Source of the DNA: Candidatus Undinarchaeota archaeon
GTDB lineage: Archaea > SpSt-1190 > JASMDC01
Direction of reading: 5' to 3'
Assembly (NCBI GenBank): GCA_964519305.1
Contig: CAZFHY010000019.1
Coordinates: forward strand, 7,351-71,350
Length of the DNA stretch: 64,000 nt
How positions within the stretch are numbered: the stretch's first letter is position 1; every line of letters starts with the position of its first letter. Positions 23,273-45,833 of the stretch are shown here, one piece after another. The translations under genes were made by a program, and so were the position numbers. The notes under the pieces were generated by a model that saw nothing but the letters and a program-made list of their open reading frames with translations, did no database searches and had not been told where the DNA came from.

Positions 23273-23331
23273 CTCCTTTATCCTTCCCTGTCCGAACACT
23301 TTTTAACGCTTCAGGCTTTCGTCCAGCGCCC

Positions 23332-28764: not shown

Positions 28765-28792
28765 TGTAAGATAATGTTTAGGAGGAATCGAT

Positions 28793-29942: not shown

Positions 29943-29966
29943 GATATGAATGACGGAGTGCTCAAA

Positions 29967-30476: not shown

Positions 30477-30493
30477 AAATGAGGTGAGTTACC

Positions 30494-30928: not shown

Positions 30929-30934
30929 ACGGAG

Positions 30935-31249
30935 ATGAGCAACTTGGACGACCCTGATGAAGAGCATCCGAAGGAAGAAGAGGGGCCGGCTAACAGTCCC
31001 CAGGTAGTGCTATCTGACGATGCACCTACCTGTGCTACTCCCAGTTGTCCCCTCTGTCGTCGGGACACCTTGTTCTTCATAATCCTTGGTTTCGCTCTCG
31101 TGATGACCGGCCAGAAGGACCTTATGCTAGCGGGGTATGTGATCATACTGGCAGCATATGCTCTGGCGTTCCTGGGCATCAATCTTCCCGATCCATTCCG
31201 GGCACAGACGCAGGTCGCTACTTCGGATGGACCGGAGGCGGATGAATGA
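30935..31249 (+). CDS. Small membrane protein with an N-terminal acidic region and a CxxxxC-x2-C motif
   Basis: 104 aa. CATPSCPLC followed by two TM helices. Embedded in the redox operon. Confidence 0.45.
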   Translation: MSNLDDPDEEHPKEEEGPANSPQVVLSDDAPTCATPSCPLCRRDTLFFIILGFALVMTGQKDLMLAGYVIILAAYALAFLGINLPDPFRAQTQVATSDGPEADE

Positions 31250-31329
31250 CCAAGGACGTGTTCACGTTCCTCGTCGGTGGAAAGATGAGCGAGTACAAGT
31301 AAAGACATTTAGAACTCACAGGAGATGAA

Positions 31330-31494
31330 ATGACCATGCAGAAGTTCCAGTGTACAGTGTGCGGTTATGTATACGATCCCGAGCAGGGCGATCCGGAGAA
31401 CGACGTAGAGCCGGGAACGGTCTTTGAGGACCTCCCCAACGACTGGGTGTGCCCCGTTTGTGGTGTGGAGAAGGACCAGTTCGAGCCGTTATAG
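31330..31494 (+). CDS. Rubredoxin
   Basis: 54 aa, [20 protein letters not shown]...[14 protein letters not shown]. Two CxxCG knuckles. GGAG SD. Not in the ORF track because it is shorter than 60 aa. Confidence 0.85.
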
Positions 31495-31517
31495 GCTCCG
31501 GTCTAAGGAGCGTTCCC

Positions 31518-31763
31518 ATGACGGACGACGAAATAACTCCTGCCAAGGAGCTGGACTGCGTGGGGCTCTATTGTCCTATGCCCATCGCCCAGACAAAGGA
31601 GGCCATAGAGACCGTCGGAGTTGGCGAAGTGCTGATGGTGGAGGCCGACGATCCAGCTGCAGAGGAGGACATCACACGCTGGGCGAAACGTACCGGTCAC
31701 GAACTGTTGAAGTTCGAGCGTGCTGGCTCGATAATGACCTTCTACATCAAGCGTACGAAGTGA
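31518..31763 (+). CDS. TusA-like sulfurtransferase
   Basis: 81 aa. CPxP active-site motif (LDCVGLYCPMPI). AGGAG SD. The ORF-track N-terminal extension was rejected. Confidence 0.75.
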   Translation: MTDDEITPAKELDCVGLYCPMPIAQTKEAIETVGVGEVLMVEADDPAAEEDITRWAKRTGHELLKFERAGSIMTFYIKRTK

Positions 31764-31824
31764 CCGGAGGACACAGCTTACGCTAGGACCGGTGATTCGC
31801 CGGAAGAGGGAGTCTTATCTACTC

Positions 31825-32289
31825 CTATTCCCAGGTCATGACGCGTTCATAGTGGTTGTAGTACCCGTTATGGGTTTCCTCGAGTTCTATGAGCTCTGCT
31901 TTGACCTTGTGTTCCTTGATAACTCCCTTGGTCGCGAAGTACGACTTCGTGGACTCGATAGGGTGGAGGATGGAACCGAAGTGCGTCTTGTCCGGAGTGC
32001 CATAGCCCATGTCCTTGATGGCCACGATGCACTCTTCCAGAGCTTCCTTGTCTCCGCCGAACTGAACGCGAGCTCCCTCGGTGAAGGTGCGGAGGTTGTA
32101 GACGCCGCCGTGTTCGCCGTAGTGCTCCAATGATGCGTTCCACTCGGGGTGGTCCGAGAAGAGTCCCGCAACGTCGGCCTCGAAGGTGTCCTCGGGCCGC
32201 TTGTCGTACACGGTGTTGTAGTCGTACAGGCCGACCATGGTGTACCCGCGGTCATGCTCCCTCTCGATATAGTCGAACTCGATATCCAT
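31825..32289 (-). CDS. Hypothetical protein (154 aa)
   Basis: Start chosen at the internal MDIEFDYIE, upstream of which lies an AT-rich promoter. No family recognised. Confidence 0.4.
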   Translation of the reverse strand: MDIEFDYIEREHDRGYTMVGLYDYNTVYDKRPEDTFEADVAGLFSDHPEWNASLEHYGEHGGVYNLRTFTEGARVQFGGDKEALEECIVAIKDMGYGTPDKTHFGSILHPIESTKSYFATKGVIKEHKVKAELIELEETHNGYYNHYERVMTWE

Positions 32290-32479
32290 GATTATTACCA
32301 AGCCGGCATGCCTGTTATGGAGTATAAATACGTTTCGTATATATTTTCTGGACAGGGTCAATATTCCAGGTGACCGGATGCTGACATCCCAGGATGGTCG
32401 ATTCGTGGATTGTCCGAAATTTTCTTGGCGAGCGTCATGATTAGGTTTATAATTCTTGTACAAGGGATGTCTGATAGAG

Positions 32480-32722
32480 GTGGAAACCATCGACGAGTAC
32501 GAGCTCCTCAAACGGATGCATAACTACGGAGTGGTCAGCAGGCATAATGCCAAGACGGTGCAGGAACTCGTCGGTATGATGAACCTAGATGAGGAGGAGA
32601 TCAAGGGACTTCTCGAGCGACTCATCGAATTCAGCTACGTCCATACCATATCCTCTGATGACGTAGCACGGTATTACGTGACAGGTCCGGGAATCATCAC
32701 CGTGTGTTCATTCTTTACCTGA
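32480..32722 (+). CDS. Small hypothetical protein, possible winged-helix
   Basis: Start uncertain (TTG 32456, GTG 32480 or ATG 32516). Helical ~80 aa. Low confidence. Confidence 0.3.
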   Translation: METIDEYELLKRMHNYGVVSRHNAKTVQELVGMMNLDEEEIKGLLERLIEFSYVHTISSDDVARYYVTGPGIITVCSFFT

Positions 32723-32735
32723 GGGCGGAGAGACC

Positions 32736-33371
32736 ATGCAGACGAACATCGAACGTGCGCTCGTGCTCACCTGGGAGTACCCTCCCAAAGTCGTCGGTTC
32801 CATCGCCCCACATTGCGAATCGCTAGCCCGGGGTCTGGCCAGGAAGAAGGTGGCCGTTGACGTGGTGACCTTTGATCACTGGGCAGAGGGTATCACCAAG
32901 GGAACGGGTAAGGACCGGGGTATCACAGTCCATCGCGCAGCCAATCCCATCTCACCATGTACCAGTACGCTCACATGGGCGCTCACCGCGGGCGTCGAGC
33001 TCGAACGACTCGCAGCCGACGTGATCCACTCCGTCAAGGGCAAGGTGGACATAATCCATGCTCACGACTGGGCGTCCATCCCCGCAGCTGTGGCCTTACG
33101 CCACGAGTTCGAGGTCCCGATGGTGCTCACGCTTCATTCCACAGAGACGCATCGCAGCGGGAAGGTGTTCACTCCGTACCTCGACGCGATCCGTAAGATC
33201 GAGTGGCAGGGGACCTTCGAGGCCGAGACGGTCATCGTCGACACCGAGCAGATGCGCGAGGAAGTGGTCGAGGAGTACCAGATACCCGAACGCAAGGTGC
33301 ACGTTGTCGAGCCGGGGAAGCGTGGTTGGATCAATGTCCTACTGAAGCAGTACCGGGAGGCCATGCCATGA
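32736..33371 (+). CDS. Standalone GT4 glycosyltransferase N-terminal domain (no catalytic C-domain)
   Basis: Paralogous to the N-half of the downstream GT4 (WEYPPKVVGSIAPH / VDIIHAHDW / LTLHSTE). Ends at 211 aa without the E-x7-E domain. ATGA overlap with the next gene. Confidence 0.65.
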   Translation: MQTNIERALVLTWEYPPKVVGSIAPHCESLARGLARKKVAVDVVTFDHWAEGITKGTGKDRGITVHRAANPISPCTSTLTWALTAGVELERLAADVIHSVKGKVDIIHAHDWASIPAAVALRHEFEVPMVLTLHSTETHRSGKVFTPYLDAIRKIEWQGTFEAETVIVDTEQMREEVVEEYQIPERKVHVVEPGKRGWINVLLKQYREAMP

Positions 33372-34648
33372 GCCCTGCGAAGAAGGCCGCGCCCAAGCAG
33401 CAGAAGACGGCGAAGAAGCGGGACCGGCCTCTTACTGTGCTCCATCTCTGCTGGGAGTACCCTCCCCGGAGCGTTGGCGGGCTCGCGGCCCACGTGCACG
33501 ATCTTTCACGTGCACTGGTAAAGAAGGACATCGAGGTCCATGTGGTCACCTGCGGATTCCCCGGGACTAAGGACTACGAGCATTACGAGAACGTCCACGT
33601 TCACCGGTTCGATGCTTACACAATCCCGTCCGAGGACTTCCTTGGGTGGGCCTTACAGATGAACCTCTACAAGCGGATGAAGGCGGCCGATGTCATCCAT
33701 AACCTCGATGGCGAGGTGGATATCATCCACGCGCATGACTGGCTCTCAGGACCCGCTGCCATCGCGCTCAAGAACGCCTTCCGCATCCCCCTTGTATCGA
33801 CCATCCACGCCACCGAGCACGGCCGGCGGCAGGGGATCCATGATCCCTTCCAGCAGATGATTCACGACATCGAGGGCTGGCTCTCATACAACTCCTGGCG
33901 CGTCATCGTGTGCTCGAAGTACATGGAGGACGAAGTATCTACGGTGTTCGGTCAGCCTCGTGAGAAGCTCGACATAATCCCCAACGGCGTTGACTACAAG
34001 AAGTTCGACCTTGAGTTCGACGCCCACGCCATCAAATCCCAGTTCGCTATGCCCCATGAGCGTATCGTGCTCTATGTGGGACGCATGGTGCACGAGAAGG
34101 GTCTCGGCGTGCTCGTTGGATCGATCCCGCGGGTGCTTGAGTCCTGCCCTGACGCGAAGTTCGTGCTAGTGGGCAGCGGTTACATGAAGAGCCGTGTCAA
34201 ACAGCTCGCCTGGGACATGGGCGTGGGTGATAAGACCCTCATCCCCGGCTATCTGGACGAGGAGGTCCTACTAGGCCTGTACAATATCGCTGACGTGGCG
34301 GTGTTCCCGTCCTTGTACGAACCTTTCGGTATCGTGGCCTTGGAAGGAATGGCGGCTAGGACCCCGACCGTGGTGACCGACACCGGCGGGCTCGGGGAGA
34401 TAGTCGATCACGACGAGACGGGCGTGAAGGTCTGGGTTGACAACTCGGAATCCCTGGCCTGGGGCATCTCTCACGTGCTCAATGATTCGGCGCTCTCCAA
34501 GAAGCTCGGAAAGCAAGGGCGTCACAAGGTAGAGACTGTCTACAACTGGGAGGTCATCGCCGACCAGACAATCGACGTGTACCGTCGGGTTATGGCCGAT
34601 TACACGAAGGGGCGCTGGAAACCCGGGTTCAAGCCGGGTGTACGGTAA
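33368..34648 (+). CDS. GT4-family glycosyltransferase (full length)
   Basis: N-domain WEYPP...HAHDW. C-domain EPFGIVALEGMA (E-x7-E). Confidence 0.85.
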   Translation: MSPAKKAAPKQQKTAKKRDRPLTVLHLCWEYPPRSVGGLAAHVHDLSRALVKKDIEVHVVTCGFPGTKDYEHYENVHVHRFDAYTIPSEDFLGWALQMNLYKRMKAADVIHNLDGEVDIIHAHDWLSGPAAIALKNAFRIPLVSTIHATEHGRRQGIHDPFQQMIHDIEGWLSYNSWRVIVCSKYMEDEVSTVFGQPREKLDIIPNGVDYKKFDLEFDAHAIKSQFAMPHERIVLYVGRMVHEKGLGVLVGSIPRVLESCPDAKFVLVGSGYMKSRVKQLAWDMGVGDKTLIPGYLDEEVLLGLYNIADVAVFPSLYEPFGIVALEGMAARTPTVVTDTGGLGEIVDHDETGVKVWVDNSESLAWGISHVLNDSALSKKLGKQGRHKVETVYNWEVIADQTIDVYRRVMADYTKGRWKPGFKPGVR

Positions 34649-34748
34649 GGCCTAGACCTTAGTACAATAATCCTTGAACTTAGTTCGAACTCTGTCGGAT
34701 AAAAAGGGAGGGGCGCCCGAAGGCGCCCCCGGTATTCTATCGACGACC

Positions 34749-37700
34749 CTAGACCGGACCTGAGCCGCACGTGTACTCGTTGGGGAAACAACTGTGGGGC
34801 GCAGAGTCGCCCTCACACCACTTGCAGTCAGCCAGCTCCATGCAGGTTGCATCAGTGATGGCATTATAGCAATCGGGGTGGTCGTCGCCCCCCGTGTCAT
34901 CCATAAGGCACTCACCGGTGTCGTCCTTGCAGTAGTTACCGTCAGGACATCCGCAATCCATACAGCAGCCGAACTGGTCCTCCCAGGGATCGCAGCTGTT
35001 ATTCTTATTGCAGCTGCAGTCGTCGTGGCAGTTATCTTTGTTCTCGCCCGTGTCGTAGTCGCAGATACCGTCGCCGCAGTGGTCGTCGGTGTGATCTCCA
35101 CCCGAGCTCATGTCACACCAGGGCGGATCCGTCATGCCGGGGCCGGGACTGATGCAGTTGGCGGGTGCGTTGGGGTCCACCCACTCGTCCGGCAGGTCCT
35201 GGTACATGTCAGGGCACGGCTGGTCGAGGTCGACGCGGCATGCGTCCATACCCTCTGAGGACTGGCAGCACTTGTAGCCGCTCGGGCCGCCTTGGTCGTC
35301 ACCGCTGTCGGACCGACACATATCGTAGTCGCAGAACTGTTCGGACGGACAACCACAGTCCTGTTGGCAGGAACCGCAGTTCTCGCCTTCATGGCCGCGG
35401 CAGTCGCCGTCACCGCAGTGACCCTGTTGGCTCCCGCTATCCTCGGGCTTGCAGATGTTCGATCCTTGGTCGCACCAGTGGTCCGCAGGGCAGCCGCAGT
35501 CCTTGCAGCAGTCGGAGGAGCCCTCCTGTCCGTTGCACATACCATCGCCGCAGTAAGGATCGTACCCGCCGCTGCTGCCGCCACAGTCGTACTCGCAGAA
35601 GCCCTCGCACTCTGAGTAGCTCCGACCCATCTCGTTGATGCACTTATTCTTGCACTGCTCGCACTGGTCGCCCGAGGGCTGCTCAGTGCCGCCGCTACCA
35701 TCGCTGTTGGACTGCCAGTAGCGCTCGGACATCTCGTTGAACCTCTGTTCGAGGTCCCGCTGGAGCCTGTCCCAATCGCGACCGTCGGACTCGAGCGCCT
35801 TCATGCGCATCTCCTCGTAGTACAGCTCGAGCTGCTTGAGGAGGGCCTGATCGTGGTACCGCACGTCCTCGCGCATTTGGGTGAGGTCCCTGGACTTCCA
35901 CAGGAGCCACTGCATTCGCCAGAACTGGAAGCGGTAGCCCTCCCAATCGCGCTCGAAGCGTTCCATAACGCGACCGGGATCGTAAGCACCGTCGAGCTCG
36001 CCGCGGAACTCTTCGGCGCGAGCCTTCATATCGAGCAGGATGCGGTTCAGCTCCTGGGTACCGGGCACGTTCTCGTACTCCATCCGGTCGACCTCGTCCT
36101 CGAATCCTTGGAGCTCGTTCTTGAGGCCGCTGAGGCGCTCGAGCATCCATAGGCTCTCCTGGAACTGGTCGAACTCGCGCTGGAACGGCTCGAAGTGGCG
36201 CCAGATATCCCTGACACCGTCCATATCGCTCGCAAGTGCGTCCAGCTTGTGCTGAAGCTCGCGGAACTTCGTCTTGGCACTGCTCACGTCCACGCCATCG
36301 TACTCCATACGCTCGAGCTGGTCCTGGATGTCCTGGAAGCGGCGCTTGTAGTCATTGGTCATTCGCTGTGCCTCAAGCCCCTGGAACACGGAGTTCTCGA
36401 ATTCACTGACGCGGCGGTTGAACAGTTCCTGCTCACGCCAGATGCGGTCCATCTGCTCCGTGGCCCTCAACTTGTTCTTGAACTCGTCAAGCTCGTACCA
36501 GAGGCTCTTGAGCCCACGACGGGCCTCGGATGTATCGATTTCGTCGTACTCCATGTCCTCAAGGCGCTGTTCCATGTCCCTGAACCTGCGCTCGAACTCG
36601 CGGGGGATGGTTGCGATGGCACGGCGCTGTTCGAGGGCGTTGATCTTGCGCTCGAACTGGTGGATGATCGTGTCCCATCTACCGCCTTCCATCTCCTGCA
36701 CCTCGCGAACGACGTTCCGCAGCTCGGCCCGAAGGTCGGCGAGCTCCTCATATAGGTCGTCCACGCGGATACCGTTGTACTCATCGTCACGGAGCTGGTC
36801 CTCCATATTGCGCAGGCGGTCCTCGAGGCCGCCAAGCCATCGGCGGGACTCGAACTCGCGCTCGAGTCTGTCGATTTCACGGTGGAACCGCTCGAGGGCG
36901 CGACCGAGCCGGTGGCCCTGGATGCCTGCGTTGCGCATTTCGTCAATACCCTCGCGGATATCCTCGATAGCATAGCGGTACGGCTTGGTGTCGACACCGT
37001 CATACTCGGCCTCCTCAAGGCGCTGTTCGACATTGTTGAGCCGGTTCTCGAGATCTATGAAGGCGCCGCTCATATCGATCTGTTCTCTGATGTACCAGAG
37101 CTTCTCGAACATCCGCTCAGCACGGCGGAAATCGCCCTGCTTGGCAAGACCCTCGATGGTGCGGAGCACCTCCTCGTAATCCCTGCGGAGGTCCTCGACG
37201 AAGTCGGGGACCTTGAAGCCGCTGTAGCTGGCGTCCTCGAAGCGCCTGTCGAGATCTTCCAGGAACCGGTAGGCGTCCTCGATCTGCTCGTTGAAATGGC
37301 GCCATTGCATGAACGACTCGAACTCGCGGTGGAGCCGTTCCATCCTGTGGCGGCACTTACCCATGATGCGGTCGAACTCGTGCGGATTGCGCACATTGCG
37401 CATCTCGTCCATGGCATTGTCGAAGCACAGAGCGACGTCCTTGAGCTTGGTCTCCATATCAGAGACGTCGAAGCCCTCGTAGGCCATCATGTCAAGTTCT
37501 TCGAACATGCGGTACAAGTTATCCTCGATCATGGTACGCTCGTAGAAGAAGTGCACAAGGGGCATCTTCTCCATAGCGTTGCGGAAGACCTTCTCGGCCG
37601 CTCTGGCCTTACCGTTCATAGCGAGCTCGATGGCCTTGTCGATACCACCTTCGATCTCGTCCAGAAGAGCGTTTAAGCGCCCTCCCTCCTCGCCGGGGAG

Positions 37701-40613
37701 CTCTTCAGCACGGATGCGCATATCCTCGAGCTCATACCGGATGTGCTCCTGCTCACGCAGGAAGTCAAAGTACATTCGCACCTCGTCAAGGGCGCGGTGG
37801 AGGCCGCCGAAGCGCTTCTCGATCTTGCCCAGGAGCTTACCTGCCGACTTGAACTTGCCGGCCTCGATATCGTCCTGTGCCTCTATGATCATGTCCTCGA
37901 TCTCGTTGAAGATGGACAGAGCGGGGCCTATGTCGATACCGTTGGCCACCATCTCCTCGACCTCCCATGAGACATCCTGGTAGTGTCGGATGATGCCCTC
38001 CAGGTGACCGCGGATATGGATCTCCTCGATAACAGCCCAGGCATTTCCCATCTCCTTCCAGGCATTATCAATGTCGCCGCTCGCAGCGGCACTGTACGAC
38101 TGGTAGAGATAGTCTTCTGCCAAGCTTATGAGATAGAGCATCTCCTCGATGTCCGCTCCCATCATCTCCATCTCGAAGAGACGTTCCTGTGCCTCCTCGA
38201 GCTGGTCGTAGGCGTTCTCGAGCTCGTCCTCGAAAGCAAAGCCTTCGGGTTCCAAGGCTCGCTGGAACGCGCGATTGATGAATTTGTGCACTCTGCGGGT
38301 GAATCCCTCGAAGCGGTGCTGGATGTCCATTATATGACCGATATCGCCGCTGTCCTCAGCTTCAGCGAGCTCGTTCTGGATGTCCTGGAGCTCCTCAAGG
38401 AGACGGGAGAGCTCGATGCGGAACCTGCCCACATCTGTGCCACCCTCCTCCAGCTCGTTCAGAGACTCGTCGAAATCGGTGATATCAAGATCGAGCTCCA
38501 TGATGCCGAGCGAGGTCTCCAGACGCGATACGAGCATGTTGGCCTCCTCAGCGAGGTAGTCGACCTCTTCGAGCTTACCCTCGAGGATGAGCTTCTGTGC
38601 ATCGTCGATGAGGAGGCGTAGTTCCTCGATGATCGCCTCCTCGACGGAGAGATCGTAGCCCGCACCCTTGAGCTCATCGACCTTCTCAGCAAGACCTTCG
38701 ATGTATTGCTTACCATCGTTCAGGTCGTCCTGATAGCGCTGGTTGTCCTTCTTACGGTCCAGTTGCTCTCGGATCTCCAATACCTGCTCCCAACCCTCAG
38801 GACCGCTACCTGCCTCCTTGAGCGCACCGAGCAGGTCCTGTAGGTCACCGAGGTCGACGTTCTCGTCCTCGGCCTCTTCGAACTCGTACTGAAGACTCTT
38901 GAGAGCGGAGTCGAACTGATGGTTCTCCACCTCGGAGGACACATCCTGCTCATCGCTACCGAGCTGGGCCCTACCGATGAGCTTCTCGATCTCGCCCACC
39001 TTGAGCTTGATCTCCTTACCCGCGTGCTTGAAGGCGTCGATGTCCTTCCCTTCTAGGGCGTAGAACTCAGCGTCCCTCCCTAACCGCTGGACGGCCTTGA
39101 GGAGGTAGCGCATTTTCTTGTCCTCGCCAAACTCCTTCTCGAAGGACTCGGCCTTCTCTTCAAGAGCGCTAATGAGGTTCTTAATATCCCCAAGTTCCTT
39201 ACGGACGTCGTTCTTCTCGGAACCCACCAGCTCTTCGATGCGTTCGGCCCGGCGGTCCTTGTCAAGGCTGGAGACGATCGCCCACTCGCCCTGTGAAGCG
39301 AGGTCCTGGGCCAGACGTGCCTGGCGGAAGCCCTCTACATACTTCTCGCCCTCCAGTGCTTCCTGGGCTCTGGTCAGAGCAGCGTCTGCCTTGTCGATGA
39401 AATCGAGGGCCTTCTTTAGAACGCCCGCCTCGATTGTGATATCGTCCTTGTAATTAGCGATGAGCACCCGCATCTCGCCGATAACGACCTCGGCACGGCC
39501 AGCCTCATCGAGAGCCTTCTTGGCTAGCTGGAGTCGTTCAAGCTCTCTCTCAAGAGCGCTGATCTTGGAAGCGAGGTCCTTGGCCTTCTTAGCGTACTTG
39601 TCCTTGGCCTTGCGGACCTGTTCTGCCACGGCAGCTACGGGGTCCTCTTCCTCCACATGCTGGATGGCGTCCTCGGTGACGTTCTGCTCCTTGAAGCGCT
39701 CCACGAGCTCTTCTGAGAGACCGCTGTCACCGACAACGATGATATCGGTGATGTTGTAGTTGCGGACGAAGTCGGCCAGTTCCTTGGCCTTGCTGGTGTC
39801 AGAGATAACGAACACGACCGTGTCCTCAGCGTCCGCGGGCATCTTGAGGATGTCCGCATAGTTATCCTCTGTGACGATGATGCGTGCCGTAGTGATGCCT
39901 TCGATCTCGGTAAGCTTGCTCTTGATATGACCGAGGATGCGGTCGAGGGTCTTATCGATGGAGGATCCGGTCACCTTCGTCAAGCTAGGACCGATGGATT
40001 CCACAGCGGAGGTGAGGTTCTCGGAAGGATTGGTACCGACAAGCACCACGTTCGAGACATTGAGGTCGGTGAGGAGCGATGCCGCATCGACGGATAGCGC
40101 GTCGCAGGGTGTGAGCAGGATAGGGGCTCCATACATCCGTGCGAGGGACAACGATGCAGCCAGCTGCTTGTATTCCTCACCTACGGAGTATATGTTATCA
40201 CAAACTAGAACAGCATCGTTTGTACCTGTGGAGAACCAGAAGTACATACCGATGCTCGCGGCCGTACCATAGCGGGTCATGTCCCAGATACGCTCGGTGG
40301 TGAAGCCGATCTCAGTAAGTTTCTTCTCGACGTCCTCACTGATGACGGCGGGTCCACCTATGATATAGACCGTCTTGGGAGCGAGGTCCCGCAACGTGGC
40401 CTCCACCGCTTCAGAGAGCTCGTTCTCGTCAGTGACGATTACCGGCGCTCCGATCTTGTTCGCAGCGGCCGCTGCAACAACGGAATCAGGGTAGTTCACC
40501 GTGGTGGTGAGGAACACCGCGTCCACGGACTCTTCTGCCATGGCCAAGCTGGCCATGAGCACAGTCAATATCAGTACAAAACGCAATCCTCTATACATAG
40601 CCTTCGCCTCCAA
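34749..40613 (-). CDS. Giant secreted modular protein (1954 aa): signal peptide, 3x CWB2-like repeats, about 7 or more degenerate ~100-aa helical repeats, and a C-terminal tandem Cys-rich CGDGxC...DCGCP module
   Basis: Signal peptide MYRGLRFVLILTVLMASLAMA. Three repeats with the CWB2-like pattern (RIwdmtRYGTAASIG...GAPILLT...VVLVG). A long acidic helical region with recurring (L/M)E+.EY(D/E)G(V/I)D(V/T) units. The last ~330 aa hold about 60 Cys, with three or more copies of H-CGDG-x-C-x3-8-(E/T)GE(N/S)-x-C-x2-3-DCGCP. Confidence 0.75.
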   Translation of the reverse strand: MEAKAMYRGLRFVLILTVLMASLAMAEESVDAVFLTTTVNYPDSVVAAAAANKIGAPVIVTDENELSEAVEATLRDLAPKTVYIIGGPAVISEDVEKKLTEIGFTTERIWDMTRYGTAASIGMYFWFSTGTNDAVLVCDNIYSVGEEYKQLAASLSLARMYGAPILLTPCDALSVDAASLLTDLNVSNVVLVGTNPSENLTSAVESIGPSLTKVTGSSIDKTLDRILGHIKSKLTEIEGITTARIIVTEDNYADILKMPADAEDTVVFVISDTSKAKELADFVRNYNITDIIVVGDSGLSEELVERFKEQNVTEDAIQHVEEEDPVAAVAEQVRKAKDKYAKKAKDLASKISALERELERLQLAKKALDEAGRAEVVIGEMRVLIANYKDDITIEAGVLKKALDFIDKADAALTRAQEALEGEKYVEGFRQARLAQDLASQGEWAIVSSLDKDRRAERIEELVGSEKNDVRKELGDIKNLISALEEKAESFEKEFGEDKKMRYLLKAVQRLGRDAEFYALEGKDIDAFKHAGKEIKLKVGEIEKLIGRAQLGSDEQDVSSEVENHQFDSALKSLQYEFEEAEDENVDLGDLQDLLGALKEAGSGPEGWEQVLEIREQLDRKKDNQRYQDDLNDGKQYIEGLAEKVDELKGAGYDLSVEEAIIEELRLLIDDAQKLILEGKLEEVDYLAEEANMLVSRLETSLGIMELDLDITDFDESLNELEEGGTDVGRFRIELSRLLEELQDIQNELAEAEDSGDIGHIMDIQHRFEGFTRRVHKFINRAFQRALEPEGFAFEDELENAYDQLEEAQERLFEMEMMGADIEEMLYLISLAEDYLYQSYSAAASGDIDNAWKEMGNAWAVIEEIHIRGHLEGIIRHYQDVSWEVEEMVANGIDIGPALSIFNEIEDMIIEAQDDIEAGKFKSAGKLLGKIEKRFGGLHRALDEVRMYFDFLREQEHIRYELEDMRIRAEELPGEEGGRLNALLDEIEGGIDKAIELAMNGKARAAEKVFRNAMEKMPLVHFFYERTMIEDNLYRMFEELDMMAYEGFDVSDMETKLKDVALCFDNAMDEMRNVRNPHEFDRIMGKCRHRMERLHREFESFMQWRHFNEQIEDAYRFLEDLDRRFEDASYSGFKVPDFVEDLRRDYEEVLRTIEGLAKQGDFRRAERMFEKLWYIREQIDMSGAFIDLENRLNNVEQRLEEAEYDGVDTKPYRYAIEDIREGIDEMRNAGIQGHRLGRALERFHREIDRLEREFESRRWLGGLEDRLRNMEDQLRDDEYNGIRVDDLYEELADLRAELRNVVREVQEMEGGRWDTIIHQFERKINALEQRRAIATIPREFERRFRDMEQRLEDMEYDEIDTSEARRGLKSLWYELDEFKNKLRATEQMDRIWREQELFNRRVSEFENSVFQGLEAQRMTNDYKRRFQDIQDQLERMEYDGVDVSSAKTKFRELQHKLDALASDMDGVRDIWRHFEPFQREFDQFQESLWMLERLSGLKNELQGFEDEVDRMEYENVPGTQELNRILLDMKARAEEFRGELDGAYDPGRVMERFERDWEGYRFQFWRMQWLLWKSRDLTQMREDVRYHDQALLKQLELYYEEMRMKALESDGRDWDRLQRDLEQRFNEMSERYWQSNSDGSGGTEQPSGDQCEQCKNKCINEMGRSYSECEGFCEYDCGGSSGGYDPYCGDGMCNGQEGSSDCCKDCGCPADHWCDQGSNICKPEDSGSQQGHCGDGDCRGHEGENCGSCQQDCGCPSEQFCDYDMCRSDSGDDQGGPSGYKCCQSSEGMDACRVDLDQPCPDMYQDLPDEWVDPNAPANCISPGPGMTDPPWCDMSSGGDHTDDHCGDGICDYDTGENKDNCHDDCSCNKNNSCDPWEDQFGCCMDCGCPDGNYCKDDTGECLMDDTGGDDHPDCYNAITDATCMELADCKWCEGDSAPHSCFPNEYTCGSGPV

Positions 40614-40745
40614 TTAACTTGACTTCCCGGTTTAGAACTCATTCGGTATGACATTTATAGGTTTCGTTCTCCTTTTGAAGGATATAGACAATCTATACAC
40701 GTCGATATTTCTTCTGGAACGTGACAAGGGGATGAGGTTATCTGA

Positions 40746-41882
40746 ATGGATAGAATGGGACCGAGCGTGGATGATGTGATGTCCCATCTAGAGGAATACG
40801 AGTTCTCCACCTTTCAACTCGGCACGACCAGCCTCCATGACAAGGACTCATTTGTACAAGCTATCACTGAGAGGTTCGGTGCCACCTTCGCCGAGAAGCA
40901 CCCCGATCTCACGATCGTGCTTGGATCAGGTACCATGGAGATTATGACACGTCCACTGTTCGTGTACGGGCGGTACTTCAAGACCTCACGAGAGATCCCA
41001 CAGACGAGATGGCCTTGTCGCGTATGTAAGGGCGCTGGTTGTCCACGCTGCGATGGTACGGGAAAAATGTATCAGGAGAGCGTCGAGGAGATACTGGGCG
41101 CCCCCCTCCTGACAGCTACCGGCGGGACGGGAACCCGGCTCCACGGTTGTGGTCGTGAGGACATCGACGCGCGGATGCTCGGGTCAGGAAGGCCATTCGT
41201 AATAGAGGTGCTCAATCCGCGCTGCCGCACAATCGACCTGCCAGAGATTACGCACGAGAAGGCGGGTTTCATGTTCCTCAGTTTCTGCGAAAAGGGCGTT
41301 TCAAGGATGCTGAAATCTTGTGCAGCGTTCAAACGTTATAGGGCGAAGGTAACACTTGAGAGCGAGGTGGACGATCTGCACCTCAAGAGGGTACATGATC
41401 TATGTGGCGTCCGGATCGACCAACGGACGCCGAACCGTGTTCTCCACCGTCGAAAGGACTTGAAGCGTGGTCGAGCGATAGCGGGTATAGTATGTCGTCG
41501 CAGTGGGCCTATGGAGCTGGAGCTCGAGCTCGTTGTTGCTTCGGGTTTCTATGTAAAGGAATTCGTTTCCGGCGATGGGGGGAGGAGCACGCCATCCCTT
41601 GCAGAGGTCTTGGACGTCGGGTGTACATGTACACGCCTCGATGTATTGGCCGTGTTCGATCCCACGCTGCTCGATCTCATTAGAGAGACGGGTATGTCGG
41701 GTAGCGATCCTCATGAAGGTGCTCAAATGGTGGGTATGACGCTGTCGTGCGGCTGTGATCCTAAGATCCAGCTTGAGCGCATGTTCACTGTTGATGAGCT
41801 TCCCACGGTAATGGATGCGCTCTCATATGGCGCCACCGCGGACGCCTCCTTGACGCTCACCTGCACTGACGATGACTTTTAA
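40746..41882 (+). CDS. pus10: tRNA pseudouridine synthase Pus10
   Basis: N-terminal Zn ribbon CRVCKGAGCPRCDGTG. The Pus10-typical YVKEFVSGDGGR motif. ~380 aa. Confidence 0.7.
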   Translation: MDRMGPSVDDVMSHLEEYEFSTFQLGTTSLHDKDSFVQAITERFGATFAEKHPDLTIVLGSGTMEIMTRPLFVYGRYFKTSREIPQTRWPCRVCKGAGCPRCDGTGKMYQESVEEILGAPLLTATGGTGTRLHGCGREDIDARMLGSGRPFVIEVLNPRCRTIDLPEITHEKAGFMFLSFCEKGVSRMLKSCAAFKRYRAKVTLESEVDDLHLKRVHDLCGVRIDQRTPNRVLHRRKDLKRGRAIAGIVCRRSGPMELELELVVASGFYVKEFVSGDGGRSTPSLAEVLDVGCTCTRLDVLAVFDPTLLDLIRETGMSGSDPHEGAQMVGMTLSCGCDPKIQLERMFTVDELPTVMDALSYGATADASLTLTCTDDDF

Positions 41883-41886
41883 TTAG

Positions 41887-43029
41887 ATGAGAGCTACTGC
41901 TCAGGCTATGGATGAGGCTCACGAGTCACTCGAGGACATCCTCAATAAGCGTCGCAAGATGGCAAATCGTCTACAGGACGCCATAGCTGGCAGGGAGGAT
42001 CCAGGGCTCCACCCCGGTGGTCCAGCTCCTGATGAGGAGGATGAACCCACTCCTCAGGCTACGAGCGACCTACATCCCCCCTCTGCAACTCCGTTATCAT
42101 CACCCTCACGTACCACTGGCCCTGCGATCTTTGACGAGGGTCTTCCGAGCATGAAGCGGGCCCCGAAGGGTGACGACACCTTCCCTGAGCCAGTAGATCC
42201 TTCCAAGGGTGATGATAGCTTCCCTGAAGGCCCGGGCTCCGTAAAGGGTGACGATAGCTTCCCTGATGTTTCCGGTCCGATAAAGGGTGACGACCTTTTT
42301 CCCGAACCGACCTCAGTACCCACTGACGACGGATTCCTCCCTGAGGCGGAGCCAGATTCATCCGCTACCGACGACGGATTCCTCCCTGAGGCGGAGCCAG
42401 ATTCATCCGCTACCGACGATGGATTCCTCCCTGAGGCGGAGGAAGAGCCCGAGCCCTTAGAGGAAGAGCCCGAGCCCGTAGAGGAAGAGCCTGAGCCTGT
42501 AGAGGAAGAGCCCGAGCCCGTAGAGGAAGAGCCTGAGCCCGTAGAGGAAGAGCCTGAGCCTCTCCCTATCCTCGGACCGGAGCCTGTAGAGGAAGAGCCC
42601 GAGCCTCTCCCTATCCTCGGACCGGAGCCTGCAGAGGAAGAGCCCGAGCCTCTCCCCGTCCTCGGACCGGAGCCTGTAGAGGAAGAGCCCGAGCCCATCA
42701 CTCTGCCCTTTCATGATGATGAGGAACGTGTTATTCCCTCACGTGAGCCTGTAGAGGCACCTTCCGAGGAGGAACCGGTTTCCGAGCCAAGTGAACCATC
42801 TCTGCGTGCAGTCCCTCTTGAGGAACCGCCAACTCGTTTCGAGCCTGAGACTATACCTGAGCCAGTGCACACGGGGGTCTCGAACTTGGAGAAGGAGGTC
42901 CGTTCTTTGAGCGAAAGTCTTGACGGTCTCCTTCGCGACCGCCAACGGTTCCCTAACAGCGAGGTATTCTATAACGTCCTTAACGAGGCGTCTAACGGTC
43001 TGAAGGACTCACTTGACCTGTTACGCTGA
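41887..43029 (+). CDS. Acidic low-complexity repeat protein
   Basis: Three nested repeat families: KGDD(T/S)FPE x4, TDDGFLPEAEPDSSA x3, and EEEPEPV / EEEPEPLPILGPEPV about 11 times. Confidence 0.55.
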   Translation: MRATAQAMDEAHESLEDILNKRRKMANRLQDAIAGREDPGLHPGGPAPDEEDEPTPQATSDLHPPSATPLSSPSRTTGPAIFDEGLPSMKRAPKGDDTFPEPVDPSKGDDSFPEGPGSVKGDDSFPDVSGPIKGDDLFPEPTSVPTDDGFLPEAEPDSSATDDGFLPEAEPDSSATDDGFLPEAEEEPEPLEEEPEPVEEEPEPVEEEPEPVEEEPEPVEEEPEPLPILGPEPVEEEPEPLPILGPEPAEEEPEPLPVLGPEPVEEEPEPITLPFHDDEERVIPSREPVEAPSEEEPVSEPSEPSLRAVPLEEPPTRFEPETIPEPVHTGVSNLEKEVRSLSESLDGLLRDRQRFPNSEVFYNVLNEASNGLKDSLDLLR

Positions 43030-43045
43030 TCACGAGAGTCTGCGG

Positions 43046-43606
43046 TCATGACTCGCTGAGGACCTCGTAGAGCTCTCGGTTCAGAACGACACGGTTGACC
43101 TTACCGAGCCGCTCTTTTGCGATGATGCCCTTGTTCTCGAGGTTCTTGAGGATACGGTGGGTCTTGACCTTGTTTAGGTTAGGGAGATGAGATAGCTCAT
43201 ACTGTTGGACCTTTCCTCCGTTCTCGAGGATCGTGTCCACTACCTTGCGCTCAAGGGGATTGAGGAACTTGAGGATGATACGTGTGTTCTTCTGAAGGAC
43301 TGTTTCCTTGTGAACAATCCGGTCGGCCATGATGTAATAGACCACGGTCCCTACGAAGAGCCCGATAAATGCGAAGAAAGGAATCAAATAATAACCGTGG
43401 AGCCATGGTTGAGCTCCGAACCGTTCCTCGAGATACTCCTTGATTTCATCTTTCGACATGCGGTCGATGGCATCCGGAGTGAGACGGGCCGCGGTCCGTT
43501 CCTGATGCTGGAGATTGAAGTAGAAACTTACCGATATGACGAGGAGGGCAAAGGAGACTATAAGGCCGATGGCCAGTACCTTGTTCTTGTTACCCTCGGA
43601 ATCCAC
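43046..43606 (-). CDS. Membrane-tethered winged-helix (MarR/ArsR-like) transcriptional regulator
   Basis: Two N-terminal TM helices and a C-terminal wHTH (QQYELSHLPNLNKVKTHRILKNLENKGIIAKER). Confidence 0.55.
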   Translation of the reverse strand: MDSEGNKNKVLAIGLIVSFALLVISVSFYFNLQHQERTAARLTPDAIDRMSKDEIKEYLEERFGAQPWLHGYYLIPFFAFIGLFVGTVVYYIMADRIVHKETVLQKNTRIILKFLNPLERKVVDTILENGGKVQQYELSHLPNLNKVKTHRILKNLENKGIIAKERLGKVNRVVLNRELYEVLSES

Positions 43607-43632
43607 ATACCTCAGAAAGGGCGACAGGTTTT

Positions 43633-43663
43633 TAACCGTTTCTTGGACGTTCTAGTCAACGGT
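43633..43663. promoter_or_regulatory. Inverted repeat AACCGTT-N17-AACGGTT in the divergent promoter
   Basis: AACCGTT at 43633-43639 and its reverse complement AACGGTT at 43657-43663. They lie immediately upstream of the membrane-wHTH regulator start, with ATATAT TATA-like boxes downstream. Confidence 0.3.
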
Positions 43664-43766
43664 TTCGTGCTCCTGAAACCAATATATACCCGATAATCGA
43701 TAGTTTCAATAACTTGGATATATAGTTTCATCATGAGGATTTTATTGTGATCAGCGAGAACCGAGG

Positions 43767-44528
43767 ATGAGAGACATGAAAGAAGTGATCGCACTATTAT
43801 TGGTAGTAGCGCTAACGGGCACGTTCCTCATGGCCATCGCGCCGGACGCTCCTTCTCCGGTATTAGTCCCAGACAAGGCCCCACCAGCATCCCCCTTGGA
43901 GTTGGAGGGTCCGCCGGTGCCTGTGGAGCGAACAGCAATCGAGCCTGGTGTTAGAACGCTCGGGTGTACCGGAGATTGTGCGAGCTGTCCATTTGCCGAT
44001 GGGGATGGCGGTTGTCCTCACGAAAAAGAAGATACTGGATGCAAACATGAGGACGCGGGGGAAGAGCACGTAGTAGAGATCCGCGGTCGTGATATGAAGT
44101 CGATGACCGTTCGTGAGATTGCGGTGCTCTGGGGCATCGATCCGAAAAAGCTGTTGGATGCCACAGTACAGCGGTTCGGGCTCCTCGGCGACCACTCTAC
44201 CGAAAGTACATTGGATGATCTTCGGGCAGAACGGCGGTTCCCTCCTGCGGACGTGAAGACGATCGCAGATGGAATAGCGTGGGAAGCCCCGGCCCCAGAG
44301 GTCATAACAGAGCCCGCCGTGCCCCATAACTGCGGTGGCTGCCCCTACGCATCAGCGGGAGGGGGCTGCGCGCTCGCTAGAGATGAACCCCCTGAAGATG
44401 TAGAACCCAAAGACCAGTACGGGGGTTGTCCTATAGGGATGGTCAACGACCCGTACCCCGGCGACTGTGGTCAATACGTGGATTCCGACCGGAACGGGTA
44501 TTGTGATTTAAGCGAATATGCCATATAG
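43767..44528 (+). CDS. Secreted Cys-rich hypothetical protein
   Basis: Signal peptide and a Pro-rich linker. Cys clusters (CTGDCASCPFADGDGGCPHEKEDTGCKHE; NCGGCPYASAGGGCA; GGCPIG...GDCGQ...YCD), possibly metal-binding. Confidence 0.5.
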   Translation: MRDMKEVIALLLVVALTGTFLMAIAPDAPSPVLVPDKAPPASPLELEGPPVPVERTAIEPGVRTLGCTGDCASCPFADGDGGCPHEKEDTGCKHEDAGEEHVVEIRGRDMKSMTVREIAVLWGIDPKKLLDATVQRFGLLGDHSTESTLDDLRAERRFPPADVKTIADGIAWEAPAPEVITEPAVPHNCGGCPYASAGGGCALARDEPPEDVEPKDQYGGCPIGMVNDPYPGDCGQYVDSDRNGYCDLSEYAI

Positions 44529-44566
44529 GAGGTGGGGATGACCACCGTCCCTTCCACTGTACAGGT

Positions 44567-44851: not shown

Positions 44852-44921
44852 AGCGATCGATGGGCCTGAGAAGGACGCACCACGAGAAAGCTTTTAATAT
44901 CCGCTTAATCTCCCAGCCGCC

Positions 44922-45746: not shown

Positions 45747-45833
45747 CCTTTCGGCCTTTTACAAAGTTGGGTATCGACCCTAAGAAAATCCTTTCTTATT
45801 TAAACCGGGAAAACAAAGAGAGTAGTGGGCATA

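What the first reader, a model, noticed from the sequence alone, without database searches (positions are those of the whole stretch)
34749..40613. Giant 1954-aa secreted protein: CWB2-like anchor, ~100-aa helical repeats and a tandem CGDGxC...DCGCP Cys-rich tip
One ORF combines three elements. (i) A signal peptide followed by three repeats matching the cell-wall-binding-2 pattern (RYGTAASIG...GAPILLT...VVLVG); these are known from Firmicute S-layer proteins and are unexpected in an archaeal context. (ii) About 1300 aa of acidic alpha-helix made of degenerate ~100-aa repeats with the recurring signature (L/M)E+.EY(D/E)G(V/I)D(V/T). (iii) A ~330-aa C-terminal region of 34752..35741 with about 60 Cys, organised as three or more copies of H-CGDG-x-C-x(3-8)-(E/T)GE(N/S)-x-C-x(2-3)-DCGCP. 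The architecture suggests an envelope-anchored fibrillar stalk that presents a disulfide- or metal-stabilised tip, such as an adhesin or sheath component. I do not recognise the Cys module as a named family.
Basis: seen in the sequence. Interest (0 to 1): 0.75.

Follow-up and report, generated by a model that had tools for sequence, protein, structure and literature searches.

The report
Giant CWB2-anchored surface fibril, DPANN archaeon
A tiny symbiotic-type archaeon (Undinarchaeales) encodes a 221-kDa secreted protein that joins a bacterial-style cell-wall-binding anchor, a long rod of about 76-residue three-helix bundles and a fast-evolving cysteine-rich end, and it is most likely a surface fibril for attaching to a partner or a particle.

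Summary
The ORF is real and the three-part architecture is confirmed, with corrections. The true start is probably the ATG at 40598, giving 1949 aa. A cleavable signal peptide is followed by a triple CWB2 module: Pfam gives 47.8 bits against a cut-off of 24.9, and the best fold matches are C. difficile Cwp6 and SLPH. The rod (aa ~326-1640) has a ~76-78-aa repeat rather than ~100, with 12-13 copies in register, and it models confidently as tandem antiparallel three-helix bundles. The tail has 46 Cys rather than ~60. It is a mosaic of a Cys-stapled hairpin, three CGDGxC...DCGC modules, a conserved core and a cap.

The host is a Candidatus Undinarchaeales (DPANN) archaeon, and only about six orthologs exist in public data. 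CWB2 is not unique here among archaea, because the closest non-orthologous anchors are 440-530-aa Aenigmarchaeota proteins with the same layout of signal peptide, CWB2x3 and a helical tail.

The Cys module has no Pfam, NCBIfam or PDB match. It nevertheless occurs in at least 1353 protein clusters of secreted bacterial and archaeal proteins.

Conservation is polarised, with dN/dS of 0.07 for the anchor, 0.11-0.16 for the rod and 0.28 plus module gain and loss for the tail. The best reading is a self-anchored fibrillar adhesin with a variable tip. Its function and the anchor's ligand are untested.

The parts
34749..40598 (-). Coding sequence of the giant surface protein. It is 1949 aa from the ATG at 40598 and includes the stop codon at 34749-34751. 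The mechanical ORF from the TTG at 40613 is 1954 aa, and the residue numbers used in this report count from that TTG.
   Evidence: ORF list. The homolog consensus starts at MYRGL. A GGAGG lies 8 nt upstream of the ATG. Purifying selection acts along the whole gene.
40607..40659 (-). Upstream signals: a TATA-like TATAAAT at 40653-40659 and a GGAGG Shine-Dalgarno at 40607-40611.
   Evidence: Read directly from the sequence. Their function is inferred.
40533..40598 (-). Signal peptide, aa 6-27: MYRGLRFVLILTVLMASLAMA, followed by EES.
   Evidence: It is the only Kyte-Doolittle window above 1.6 in the protein and has an A-x-A cleavage-type site. It is conserved in the close homologs.
40239..40532 (-). 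CWB2 repeat 1 (aa 28-125), with a PVIV motif at aa 57.
   Evidence: Pfam PF04122 scores 43.7 bits on this repeat alone. P[ILV][ILV][LV] is present. It aligns to Cwp8.
39930..40238 (-). CWB2 repeat 2 (aa 126-228), with a PILL motif at aa 164.
   Evidence: Pfam scores 19.4 bits, E 1.6e-3, which is below the cut-off on its own. BLASTP against repeat 1 gives E 2e-4. The PILL motif is present.
39639..39929 (-). Divergent third CWB2-like repeat (aa 229-325). It has TVVFV where the PILL motif would be.
   Evidence: No sequence signal was found. The model shows beta-alpha alternation. Foldseek alignments of 294-340 columns to triple-CWB2 Cwp6 (E 2.2e-5) and SLPH span this region. The region is also covered by the Aenigmarchaeota homologs.
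35694..39638 (-). Acidic all-helical rod (aa 326-1640).
35940..38915 (-). Well-defined ~76-aa rod repeats (aa 567-1558), 12 copies in register. The best eight lie in aa 1029-1558.
   Evidence: Iterated HMM with domain E-values from 1e-10 to 1e-28. Period peaks fall at 152 and 234. DNA-level repeat families D5, D7, D8 and D9 were also seen.
34752..35693 (-). Cys-rich, fast-evolving C-terminal tail (aa 1641-1954) with 46 Cys.
   Evidence: Cys positions. Identity to the close homologs is 53-67%, with many indels, against 85-96% for the rest of the protein. dN/dS is 0.28. Nucleotide identity to L001 drops to 76% here and the alignment is patchy.
35583..35663 (-). C-x2-C-x3-C-x10-C-x3-C-x3-C element (aa 1651-1677), probably a Cys-stapled helical hairpin that caps the rod.
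   Evidence: Sequence pattern. AF2 places two short helices here at low confidence. The pattern is shared with P0004 but replaced in P0001-P0003.
35451..35552 (-). Cys module 1 (aa 1688-1721): CGDGMCNGQEGSSDCCKDCGCPADHWCDQGSNIC.
   Evidence: It matches the module profile that hits 1353 protein clusters.
35316..35417 (-). Cys module 2 (aa 1733-1766): CGDGDCRGHEGENCGSCQQDCGCPSEQFCDYDMC.
35094..35288 (-). Conserved tail core (aa 1776-1840): GGPSGYKCCQS...PPWCDMSSGGD. It is retained almost unchanged in the three close homologs while the flanking modules vary.
   Evidence: Alignment of the tails.
34908..35078 (-). Cys module 3, split (aa 1846-1902). The N-half is CGDGICDYDTGENKDNCHDDCSC and the C-half is CCMDCGCPDGNYCKDDTGEC. 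It is absent in P0002.
34752..34871 (-). C-terminal 6-Cys cap (aa 1915-1954). It has no TM helix or sorting signal.
   Evidence: Conserved in P0001-P0003. There is no hydrophobic segment.

Best explanation
The protein is a secreted, non-covalently anchored cell-surface fibril of a Candidatus Undinarchaeales (DPANN) archaeon.

Proposed mechanism:
1. Sec export and signal-peptide cleavage release a ~221-kDa acidic protein (inferred from the sequence).
2. The N-terminal triple CWB2 module folds into the pseudo-trimeric unit known from C. difficile cell-wall proteins. It holds the protein on the producer's own envelope by binding a conserved, still unknown envelope glycan or polymer. The fold is supported. 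The ligand and the choice of self over partner are inferred.
3. About 17 tandem antiparallel three-helix bundles of ~76 aa are joined through continuous long helices, as in spectrin. They form a semi-rigid stalk that I estimate at 50-70 nm. The topology is supported by the model, and the length is an estimate.
4. The stalk presents a disulfide-rich modular tail made of CGDGxC...DCGC modules around a conserved core and cap. Module number and sequence change quickly between relatives, as expected for the distal, partner- or environment-facing end of an adhesin. The variability is shown. The adhesive function is inferred.
For: - Organism: the window is collinear with a Candidatus Undinarchaeales MAG at 83-88% nucleotide identity, and it carries an intron-containing tRNA.
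- Real gene: five full-length orthologs exist (P0001-P0004 and the L001 gene) plus one partial (L003), and dN/dS is 0.07-0.28.
- Anchor, family level: CWB2 is above the Pfam cut-off. PDB sequence hits are to Cwp8 (7.5e-12), Cwp6 and the SlpA HMW subunit. Foldseek's top two matches are Cwp6 (2.2e-5) and SLPH.
- Anchor, motif level: the P[ILV][ILV][LV] motif required for anchoring in C. difficile (PMC4973711) occurs exactly twice in 1954 aa, at the equivalent position of repeats 1 and 2.
- No alternative anchor: the signal peptide is the only hydrophobic segment.
- Polarity: anchor identity is 94-96%, rod 85-92% and tail 53-67% with module gain and loss. The tail is the one divergence hotspot in 25 kb of otherwise collinear DNA.
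- Extracellular module: the Cys module occurs in 1353 clusters, mostly proteins with an N-terminal hydrophobic leader. It sits next to PKD, NosD/beta-helix, subtilase, beta-propeller and M23 domains, and in another Undinarchaeales giant protein.
- Cys count: each full module has an even count of 8 Cys.
Against: - No CWB2 ligand is known in any archaeon.
- The window holds no polymer-synthesis cluster. It has only two adjacent GT4 glycosyltransferase genes.
- CWB2 repeat 3 has no sequence signal and lacks the Pro of the PILL motif.
- The CWB2 part of the model is only moderately confident, at pLDDT 30-80.
- The tail model is unusable, at pLDDT 30-50, so nothing is known about a binding surface.
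- The tail's dN/dS of 0.28 shows relaxed constraint and not proven positive selection.
- The organism lives in oxygen-deficient water, where extracellular disulfide formation is less obvious.
- Expression and localisation are untested.
Confidence: 0.55

Rival explanations
1. Reverse polarity. The CWB2 module is the business end and binds the secondary cell-wall polymer of a bacterial partner or prey. The protein would then be a tether or grappling line to a monoderm bacterium, or a released factor.
For: - CWB2 is otherwise a Firmicutes wall-polymer binder (PMC4973711).
- Archaeal proteins carrying bacterial wall-binding domains have been shown to target bacteria (PMC12352652).
- DPANN archaea are ectosymbionts, and a possible Undinarchaeota-Chloroflexi link was discussed but left unresolved (PMC7414124).
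- No archaeal CWB2 ligand is known.
Against: - The protein has no other means of staying on its producer. It has no TM helix and no C-terminal sorting signal.
- The end that would have to hold it on the producer, the tail, is the least conserved part.
- The CWB2 clade is DPANN-specific at 28-35% identity over the whole triple module and is much closer within DPANN than to Clostridia, which argues against recent capture of a host-matched domain.
Confidence: 0.13
2. Structural envelope component. The protein would be an S-layer-associated spacer or canopy protein, comparable to the long-stalked tetrabrachion of Staphylothermus marinus or to the SlpA HMW subunit. It would set envelope spacing rather than mediate adhesion.
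For: - The triple CWB2 is the anchor of the C. difficile S-layer protein, and there is a weak NCBIfam SlpA hit through the CWB2 region.
- The short Aenigmarchaeota homologs have the same head plus a short helical tail, which suggests a generic envelope role.
- The rod is well conserved, with dN/dS of 0.11-0.16.
Against: - No lattice-forming beta-rich domain is present.
- The rod models as an intramolecular three-helix-bundle chain, not an oligomeric coiled coil.
- Variable module number at the tip is not expected for a lattice component.
- The family is rare in metagenomes.
Confidence: 0.15
3. The Cys-rich tail is a metal-binding or redox module, for example for Zn, Fe or Cu capture in anoxic water, and not a disulfide-knotted adhesive tip.
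For: - The tail has 46 Cys together with many Asp, Glu and His.
- The habitat is an oxygen-deficient zone: the closest MAG is from the ETNP oxygen-deficient zone.
- NosD-type copper-related proteins are among the carriers of the module.
Against: - The conserved even count of 8 Cys per module and the C-x4-C...C-x2-C-x-C spacing are typical of small disulfide-rich extracellular modules.
- The same module sits in secreted enzymes of Planctomycetota and in other bacterial secreted proteins.
- A few carrier proteins give weak FOLN or EB (EGF-like) hits.
Confidence: 0.08

Closest known systems
Clostridioides difficile cell-wall protein (CWP) family: SlpA HMW subunit, Cwp6, Cwp8, Cwp66, CwpV
   Same: - A signal peptide is followed by three tandem CWB2 repeats that act as a non-covalent anchor.
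- Pfam PF04122 is matched.
- The P[ILV][ILV][LV] motif is present in repeats 1 and 2.
- These proteins are the best sequence and fold matches.
- The logic is the same: a conserved anchor carrying a variable functional part.
   Different: - The host is an archaeon with no known peptidoglycan or PSII polymer.
- The third repeat is highly divergent.
- The passenger is a 1300-aa three-helix-bundle rod plus Cys modules, which I did not find in any Firmicutes relative. The full-length search returned only CWB2-level hits outside the family.
Aenigmarchaeota 'cell wall-binding repeat-containing proteins' (e.g. MBN1896653.1; P0165-P0182)
   Same: - They are the closest non-orthologous relatives of the anchor, at 28-35% identity over ~95% of the triple module, and share the VYIIGGPAVIS...RIWGMTRYGTA...YFW motifs.
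- The order of parts is the same: signal peptide, CWB2x3, then a C-terminal helical extension.
- They are also from DPANN archaea.
   Different: - They are only 440-530 aa long.
- Their helical tail is 120-200 aa and shows no detectable sequence similarity to the rod repeat.
- They have no Cys-rich tail.
Spectrin-like and three-helix-bundle rods (spectrin and plectin repeats, EzrA, and the helical stalks of the bacterial adhesins Fap1 NR-alpha and BibA)
   Same: - The rod is made of tandem antiparallel three-helix bundles in which a long helix runs from one bundle into the next.
- The rod would serve as a spacer or stalk.
   Different: - The repeat is ~76 aa, whereas I recall ~106 aa for spectrin (from memory, not checked here).
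- Identity is 3-13%, there is no Pfam spectrin or FIVAR hit, and no significant Foldseek hit. This is analogy, not demonstrated homology.
Giant surface proteins of other DPANN archaea (the nanohaloarchaeal 'SPEARE' proteins of 8880-9409 aa)
   Same: - Both are very large, acidic, Sec-exported surface proteins encoded in reduced DPANN genomes and proposed to mediate host contact (PMC10266531).
   Different: - No domains are shared. Those proteins use Ig-like/fibronectin-like domains and a VirB4-like ATPase domain and are described as membrane-anchored.
- This protein is CWB2-anchored, helical and Cys-tipped.
Small disulfide-rich extracellular repeats: the Myxococcus cysteine-rich repeat (PF13948 / TIGR02232) and the EGF-like FOLN and EB modules
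   Same: - The repeats are short, with 4-8 Cys and a C-G-D-G-x-C start, and occur in tandem in secreted proteins.
- A few proteins that carry the module also give DUF4215, FOLN or EB hits.
   Different: - The tail of this protein gives no hit to any of these models even at E<=10.
- The module found here, C-G-D-[GN]-x-C-x3-E-x2-4-C-x2-D-C-G-C-x5-C-x3-6-C, is not covered by Pfam or NCBIfam.

Membership tests
CWB2 / C. difficile-type cell-wall-protein anchor (PF04122) | Match to the Pfam CW_binding_2 model above the gathering score | tested here: met
   The whole protein scores 47.8 bits against a cut-off of 24.9. Repeat 1 alone scores 43.7 bits.
CWB2 / C. difficile-type cell-wall-protein anchor (PF04122) | Three tandem CWB2 repeats, all of which are required for anchoring (PMC4973711) | tested here: inconclusive
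   Repeat 1 is clear. Repeat 2 is weak, at 19.4 bits with BLASTP against repeat 1 at E 2e-4. Repeat 3 has no sequence signal. Foldseek alignments of 294-340 columns to the triple modules of Cwp6 and SLPH cover all three, but model confidence there is moderate.
CWB2 / C. difficile-type cell-wall-protein anchor (PF04122) | A P[ILV][ILV][LV] ('PILL') motif in each repeat | tested here: inconclusive
   The motif is present in repeat 1 (PVIV, aa 57) and repeat 2 (PILL, aa 164), and these are its only two occurrences in the protein. Repeat 3 has TVVFV without the Pro. In C. difficile the Pro itself is dispensable but the hydrophobic triplet is not.
CWB2 / C. difficile-type cell-wall-protein anchor (PF04122) | Binding to an anionic wall polymer (PSII in C. 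difficile) | not testable with these tools
   No archaeal ligand is known. The window contains only two GT4 glycosyltransferase genes next to the gene.
Spectrin repeat family | Sequence match to a spectrin-type repeat model | tested here: not met
   The rod gave no Pfam hit at E<=1 other than chance-level coiled-coil matches. Only the fold topology resembles spectrin.
Myxococcus cysteine-rich repeat (PF13948 / TIGR02232) and the EGF-like FOLN and EB modules | HMM match of the Cys tail | tested here: not met
   The tail and isolated modules gave zero families at E<=10 in Pfam and NCBIfam.
Uncurated 'CGDGxC...E...C..DC(GC...C...C)' extracellular Cys module (defined here) | Match to a profile built from 11 family modules, recurring in tandem in unrelated secreted proteins | tested here: met
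   1353 representative proteins match at E<=1e-3 and 320 at E<=1e-10, with up to 23 copies per protein. In the top 149 proteins there are 279 full and 582 N-half instances.
Archaeal covalently or membrane-anchored surface proteins (C-terminal TM helix or PGF-CTERM) | A C-terminal hydrophobic helix or sorting signal | tested here: not met
   No hydrophobic window exists outside the signal peptide, and the C-terminus reads ...CFPNEYTCGSGPV.
Diversity-generating retroelement (DGR) target protein | A template repeat matching the variable 3' end of the gene, with a reverse transcriptase nearby | tested here: not met
   No direct repeat of the tail was found in window 30000-46000. None of the roughly 30 larger window ORFs scanned against Pfam carried a reverse transcriptase domain. 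The window was not scanned exhaustively.

The most novel reading that the evidence does not exclude
DPANN archaea of at least two phyla (Undinarchaeota and Aenigmarchaeota) run a CWB2-based surface-display system. One reading is that these supposedly wall-less archaea carry an undescribed anionic envelope glycan equivalent to a bacterial secondary cell-wall polymer. The other is that they use CWB2 to latch onto such a polymer on a bacterial partner, which would point to a bacterial host for a DPANN lineage. In either case the giant Undinarchaeales protein would be the long-reach member of that system, and its CGDGxC module would define a new, widespread extracellular domain family.
Probability: 0.2. 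Interest if true: 0.8.

Novelty: new variant of a known kind. Interest (0 to 1): 0.52.

Why it matters
How uncultured DPANN archaea attach to partners, and what their envelopes are made of, is largely unknown. The Undinarchaeota description lists only LamG-type candidates for cell contact (PMC7414124).

This protein gives three concrete handles on the problem:
- A conserved triple-CWB2 domain could be expressed and used as a probe to fish for its ligand, whether on the archaeon's own envelope or on a partner's wall.
- A predicted stalk of tens of nanometres could be looked for by cryo-ET.
- A variable tip could be tracked in populations.

Separately, the Cys module is a widespread uncurated extracellular repeat, found in at least 1353 clusters at 50% identity, and it merits a family definition and a structure.

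Tried and rejected
- A profile search of the word-indexed protein database with the 43-aa module alignment found no candidates, because the query was too short for the word filter. The exhaustive HMMER search replaced it.
- The AlphaFold model of the Cys tail has pLDDT 30-50, so I drew no fold conclusion from it.
- I tested whether the giant rod is an expansion of the short helical tail of the Aenigmarchaeota homologs. The rod-repeat HMM and BLASTP found no significant similarity, so I claim only a resemblance in architecture.
- DGR-type hypervariation was considered. No template repeat lies near the gene, and no reverse transcriptase was seen among the scanned ORFs.
- Recent horizontal transfer from Clostridia was considered. 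The gene's GC content matches the window, and the anchor groups with other DPANN proteins rather than with Clostridia.
- The metagenome scan added only one partial ortholog.
- Literature searches for the motif and for CWB2 in DPANN found no prior description.
- I found no operon partners. The neighbours are Pus10, GT4 glycosyltransferases, a rhomboid protease, an ABC-2 transporter and similar genes. The 57%-identical ortholog sits in a different neighbourhood, next to PAS/HisKA sensor genes.
Full report
**1. The observation**

The ORF at 34749..40613 on the minus strand exists and is 1954 aa from a TTG. The sequence upstream reads TATAAAT (40653-40659) ... TTGGAGGCGAAGGCTATG. The TTG therefore overlaps a GGAGG that lies 8 nt before the ATG at 40598. 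The consensus of the homologs begins at that Met, MYRGL. The likely CDS is 34749..40598, or 1949 aa. Residue numbers below keep the TTG numbering.

The mature protein is about 221 kDa with pI 4.5. It is 22% Asp+Glu. Its only hydrophobic segment is the N-terminal signal sequence, which ends in AMA|EES, and it has no C-terminal TM helix or sorting signal.

**2. Organism and distribution**

The window carries an intron-containing tRNA. It is collinear, at 83-88% nucleotide identity over ~25 kb, with contig JASMDC010000012.1 of a Candidatus Undinarchaeales MAG from the Eastern Tropical North Pacific oxygen-deficient zone. A 176-aa fragment that is 90% identical comes from a TARA mesopelagic sample.

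Among 5.8 billion proteins only four full-length relatives were found, at 86, 82, 83 and 57% identity. The MAG adds one full-length ortholog and a metagenome scan added one partial ortholog. The family is real but narrow. The two Undinarchaeota papers I read do not mention it.

**3. The anchor**

- CW_binding_2 (PF04122) scores 47.8 bits against a gathering score of 24.9.
- Taken one at a time, repeat 1 scores 43.7 bits, repeat 2 scores 19.4 bits (E 1.6e-3), and repeat 3 scores nothing.
- Repeat 1 against repeat 2 gives BLASTP E 2e-4. Repeat 1 against repeat 3 is not significant.
- The best PDB sequence hits are Cwp8 (7.5e-12), Cwp6 and SlpA HMW subunits.
- The AlphaFold model of aa 6-1000 shows regular beta-alpha alternation over aa ~30-320 at moderate confidence. 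Its two best Foldseek matches are the triple-CWB2 proteins Cwp6 (E 2.2e-5, 294 columns) and SLPH (340 columns).
- In C. difficile all three repeats, and a P[ILV][ILV][LV] motif in each, are needed for anchoring to the PSII polymer (PMC4973711). Here the motif occurs exactly twice in the whole protein, at equivalent positions of repeats 1 and 2 (aa 57 PVIV, aa 164 PILL). Repeat 3 has TVVFV.

The triple module is therefore well supported, with a divergent third repeat.

**4. CWB2 in archaea**

A search with the anchor alone found 72 proteins. After the orthologous fragment, the best hits (E 1e-39 to 1e-21, 28-35% identity over ~95% of the module) are 440-530-aa proteins. Those whose clusters carry a source name are from Candidatus Aenigmarchaeota. 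Clostridial proteins follow at E 1e-12 and weaker, with partial coverage.

The Aenigmarchaeota proteins have the same order of parts: a signal peptide, CWB2x3 with shared VYIIGGPAVIS / RIWGMTRYGTA / YFW motifs, and a 120-200-aa helical C-terminal extension. The anchor therefore belongs to a DPANN clade and is not a recent Clostridial import. JGI and NCBI already label such proteins automatically as cell wall-binding. The stalks themselves show no detectable sequence similarity.

**5. The rod**

BLOSUM autocorrelation over aa 330-1620 shows a heptad signal (z=10). In aa 1000-1620 it peaks at 152 and 234, which are 2x and 3x ~77. An iterated HMM finds 12-13 copies in register between aa 567 and 1639, spaced 72-81 aa apart where contiguous, with consensus L......L...EY.G.D. 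The period is ~76-78 aa, not ~100.

The AlphaFold model of aa 1400-1954 is confident in the rod (pLDDT 80-93). Long helices of 41-44 aa alternate with short helices of 19-24 aa, and the loops fall at the EYDGVD signature and at a second xDGxxD turn. That is the pattern of three-helix bundles in which the last helix of one bundle continues as the first helix of the next.

- the myosin VI lever-arm extension
- a designed single-chain antiparallel three-helix bundle
- EzrA and plectin spectrin-like repeats
- the helical regions of the adhesins Fap1 and BibA

Identities are 3-13%. Foldseek found nothing significant, and no Pfam helical-repeat family matches. This is topology, not homology. With ~17 repeats of ~3.5 nm each, I estimate a stalk of roughly 50-70 nm.

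**6. The tail**

Residues 1651-1954 hold 46 Cys. The tail is a mosaic of five elements:
- a C-x2-C-x3-C-x10-C-x3-C-x3-C element (1651-1677), probably a stapled helical hairpin
- two full 34-aa modules with 8 Cys each (1688-1721 and 1733-1766)
- a core (1776-1840) that is nearly invariant among the three close homologs
- a third, split module (1846-1902)
- a 6-Cys cap (1915-1954)

Pfam, NCBIfam and PDB sequences give no hit even at E<=10. A profile of 11 modules, searched exhaustively against 1.84 billion cluster representatives, hit 1353 proteins at E<=1e-3 and 320 at E<=1e-10, with up to 23 copies per protein.

In the top 149 hits there are 934 module instances, 279 full-length and 582 covering the N-terminal half only. 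Of the 136 that start with Met, 110 have an N-terminal hydrophobic leader. Named examples include a Planctomycetota S8 peptidase and another Undinarchaeales giant protein of 2391-3243 aa. Accompanying domains are PKD, NosD/beta-helix, subtilase, beta-propeller, M23 and LTD. The module is a widespread, uncurated extracellular repeat. Its conserved even Cys count points to disulfides.

**7. Evolutionary polarity**

| Region | Identity to the three close homologs | Identity to the 57% homolog | dN/dS against the MAG ortholog |
|---|---|---|---|
| Anchor | 94-96% | 75% | 0.07 |
| Rod | 85-92% | 57-68% | 0.11-0.16 |
| Tail | 53-67% | 25% | 0.28 (alignable part) |

The identities are and the dN/dS values. 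Modules are gained, lost or replaced in the tail. In P0004 much of the tail is replaced by DDGRYDDGG-type repeats. At the DNA level the tail is the one stretch that falls to ~76% identity and aligns in fragments, within an otherwise 83-88% identical, collinear 25 kb. No template-like repeat or tandem DNA duplication explains this.

**8. Context**

The neighbours are a convergent pair of GT4 glycosyltransferase genes, Pus10, an acidic repeat protein, a rhomboid protease and an ABC-2 transporter. There is no evident operon. The 57% ortholog sits next to PAS/HisKA sensor genes instead.

**9. Interpretation**

The most economical model is a self-anchored fibrillar surface protein. The conserved CWB2 head sits on the producer's envelope, a semi-rigid three-helix-bundle stalk extends from it, and a modular disulfide-rich distal end evolves quickly, as in many adhesins.

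Three rivals remain open:
- CWB2 may bind a bacterial partner's wall polymer. The concept is supported by PMC12352652, but the protein would then have no other self-anchor.
- The protein may be a structural canopy or S-layer-associated component.
- The tail may bind metal.

None can be settled without experiments. Functional analogues are the giant surface proteins of nanohaloarchaea (PMC10266531), which share no domains with this one.

**10. Verdict**

The architecture is a new variant of a known kind, a CWB2-anchored surface protein, in an unexpected lineage. It raises a specific and testable question: what does CWB2 bind in DPANN archaea? Interest is moderate.

Noticed in passing
window 23179-23273 (+): A 95-nt tRNA gene that ARAGORN reports as 'tRNA-???' with a four-base anticodon call. 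Rfam scores it as tRNA at 51.3 bits. It is most likely an intron-containing archaeal tRNA.
   Followed up: partly
window 41887-43029 (+), repeats at 42322-42768: A 380-aa ORF with 28% Asp+Glu, no Cys and no Pfam hit. It contains 21-nt and 45-nt tandem DNA repeats that encode EEEPEPV-type units. It lies immediately after the Pus10 gene, which sits next to the giant gene.
   Followed up: no
window 17851-21534 (+): A second large ORF of 1227 aa with an N-terminal hydrophobic segment, 24% Asp+Glu, 18 Cys and no Pfam family. It may be another secreted acidic surface protein.
   Followed up: no
window 32736-34648 (+): Two GT4-type glycosyltransferase ORFs lie convergent with the giant gene. The first (32736-33371) has only the N-terminal GT4 domain and overlaps the long N-terminal extension of the second (33203-34648). 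They share a repeated LTWEYPP-coding stretch. This may be a truncated paralog or a frameshifted duplicate.
   Followed up: no
window 27586-30476 (+): A cluster of oxygen- and iron-stress genes: a flavodiiron-like protein (ODP metallo-beta-lactamase plus flavodoxin), a pyridine nucleotide-disulfide oxidoreductase and a ferritin. This is notable for an organism from oxygen-deficient water.
   Followed up: no
window 13611-15587 (-) and 60757-62826 (+): Further surface-type proteins with CARDB/NPCBM_assoc and DUF11 domains. ORFs 68-2899 and 2899-4734 have N-terminal hydrophobic segments and no Pfam hit. A large share of this window seems devoted to envelope proteins.
   Followed up: no
L001 19063-21517, against window 31284-31301: The Undinarchaeales MAG has ~2.45 kb with no counterpart in the window at this point of an otherwise collinear region. 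It is an insertion or deletion of unknown content.
   Followed up: no
P0020 / P0156 (MDP7080200.1), not in the window: Another Undinarchaeales giant protein of 2391-3243 aa alternates half and full copies of the same Cys module. Unlike the protein studied here, it ends with a hydrophobic transmembrane-like segment. The lineage therefore reuses the module in differently anchored surface proteins.
   Followed up: partly
L002 1-9400: The 57%-identical ortholog (P0004) sits next to several large PAS/GAF/HisKA sensor kinase genes. That is unexpected for a reduced DPANN genome and suggests a more distant or larger-genome relative.
   Followed up: no
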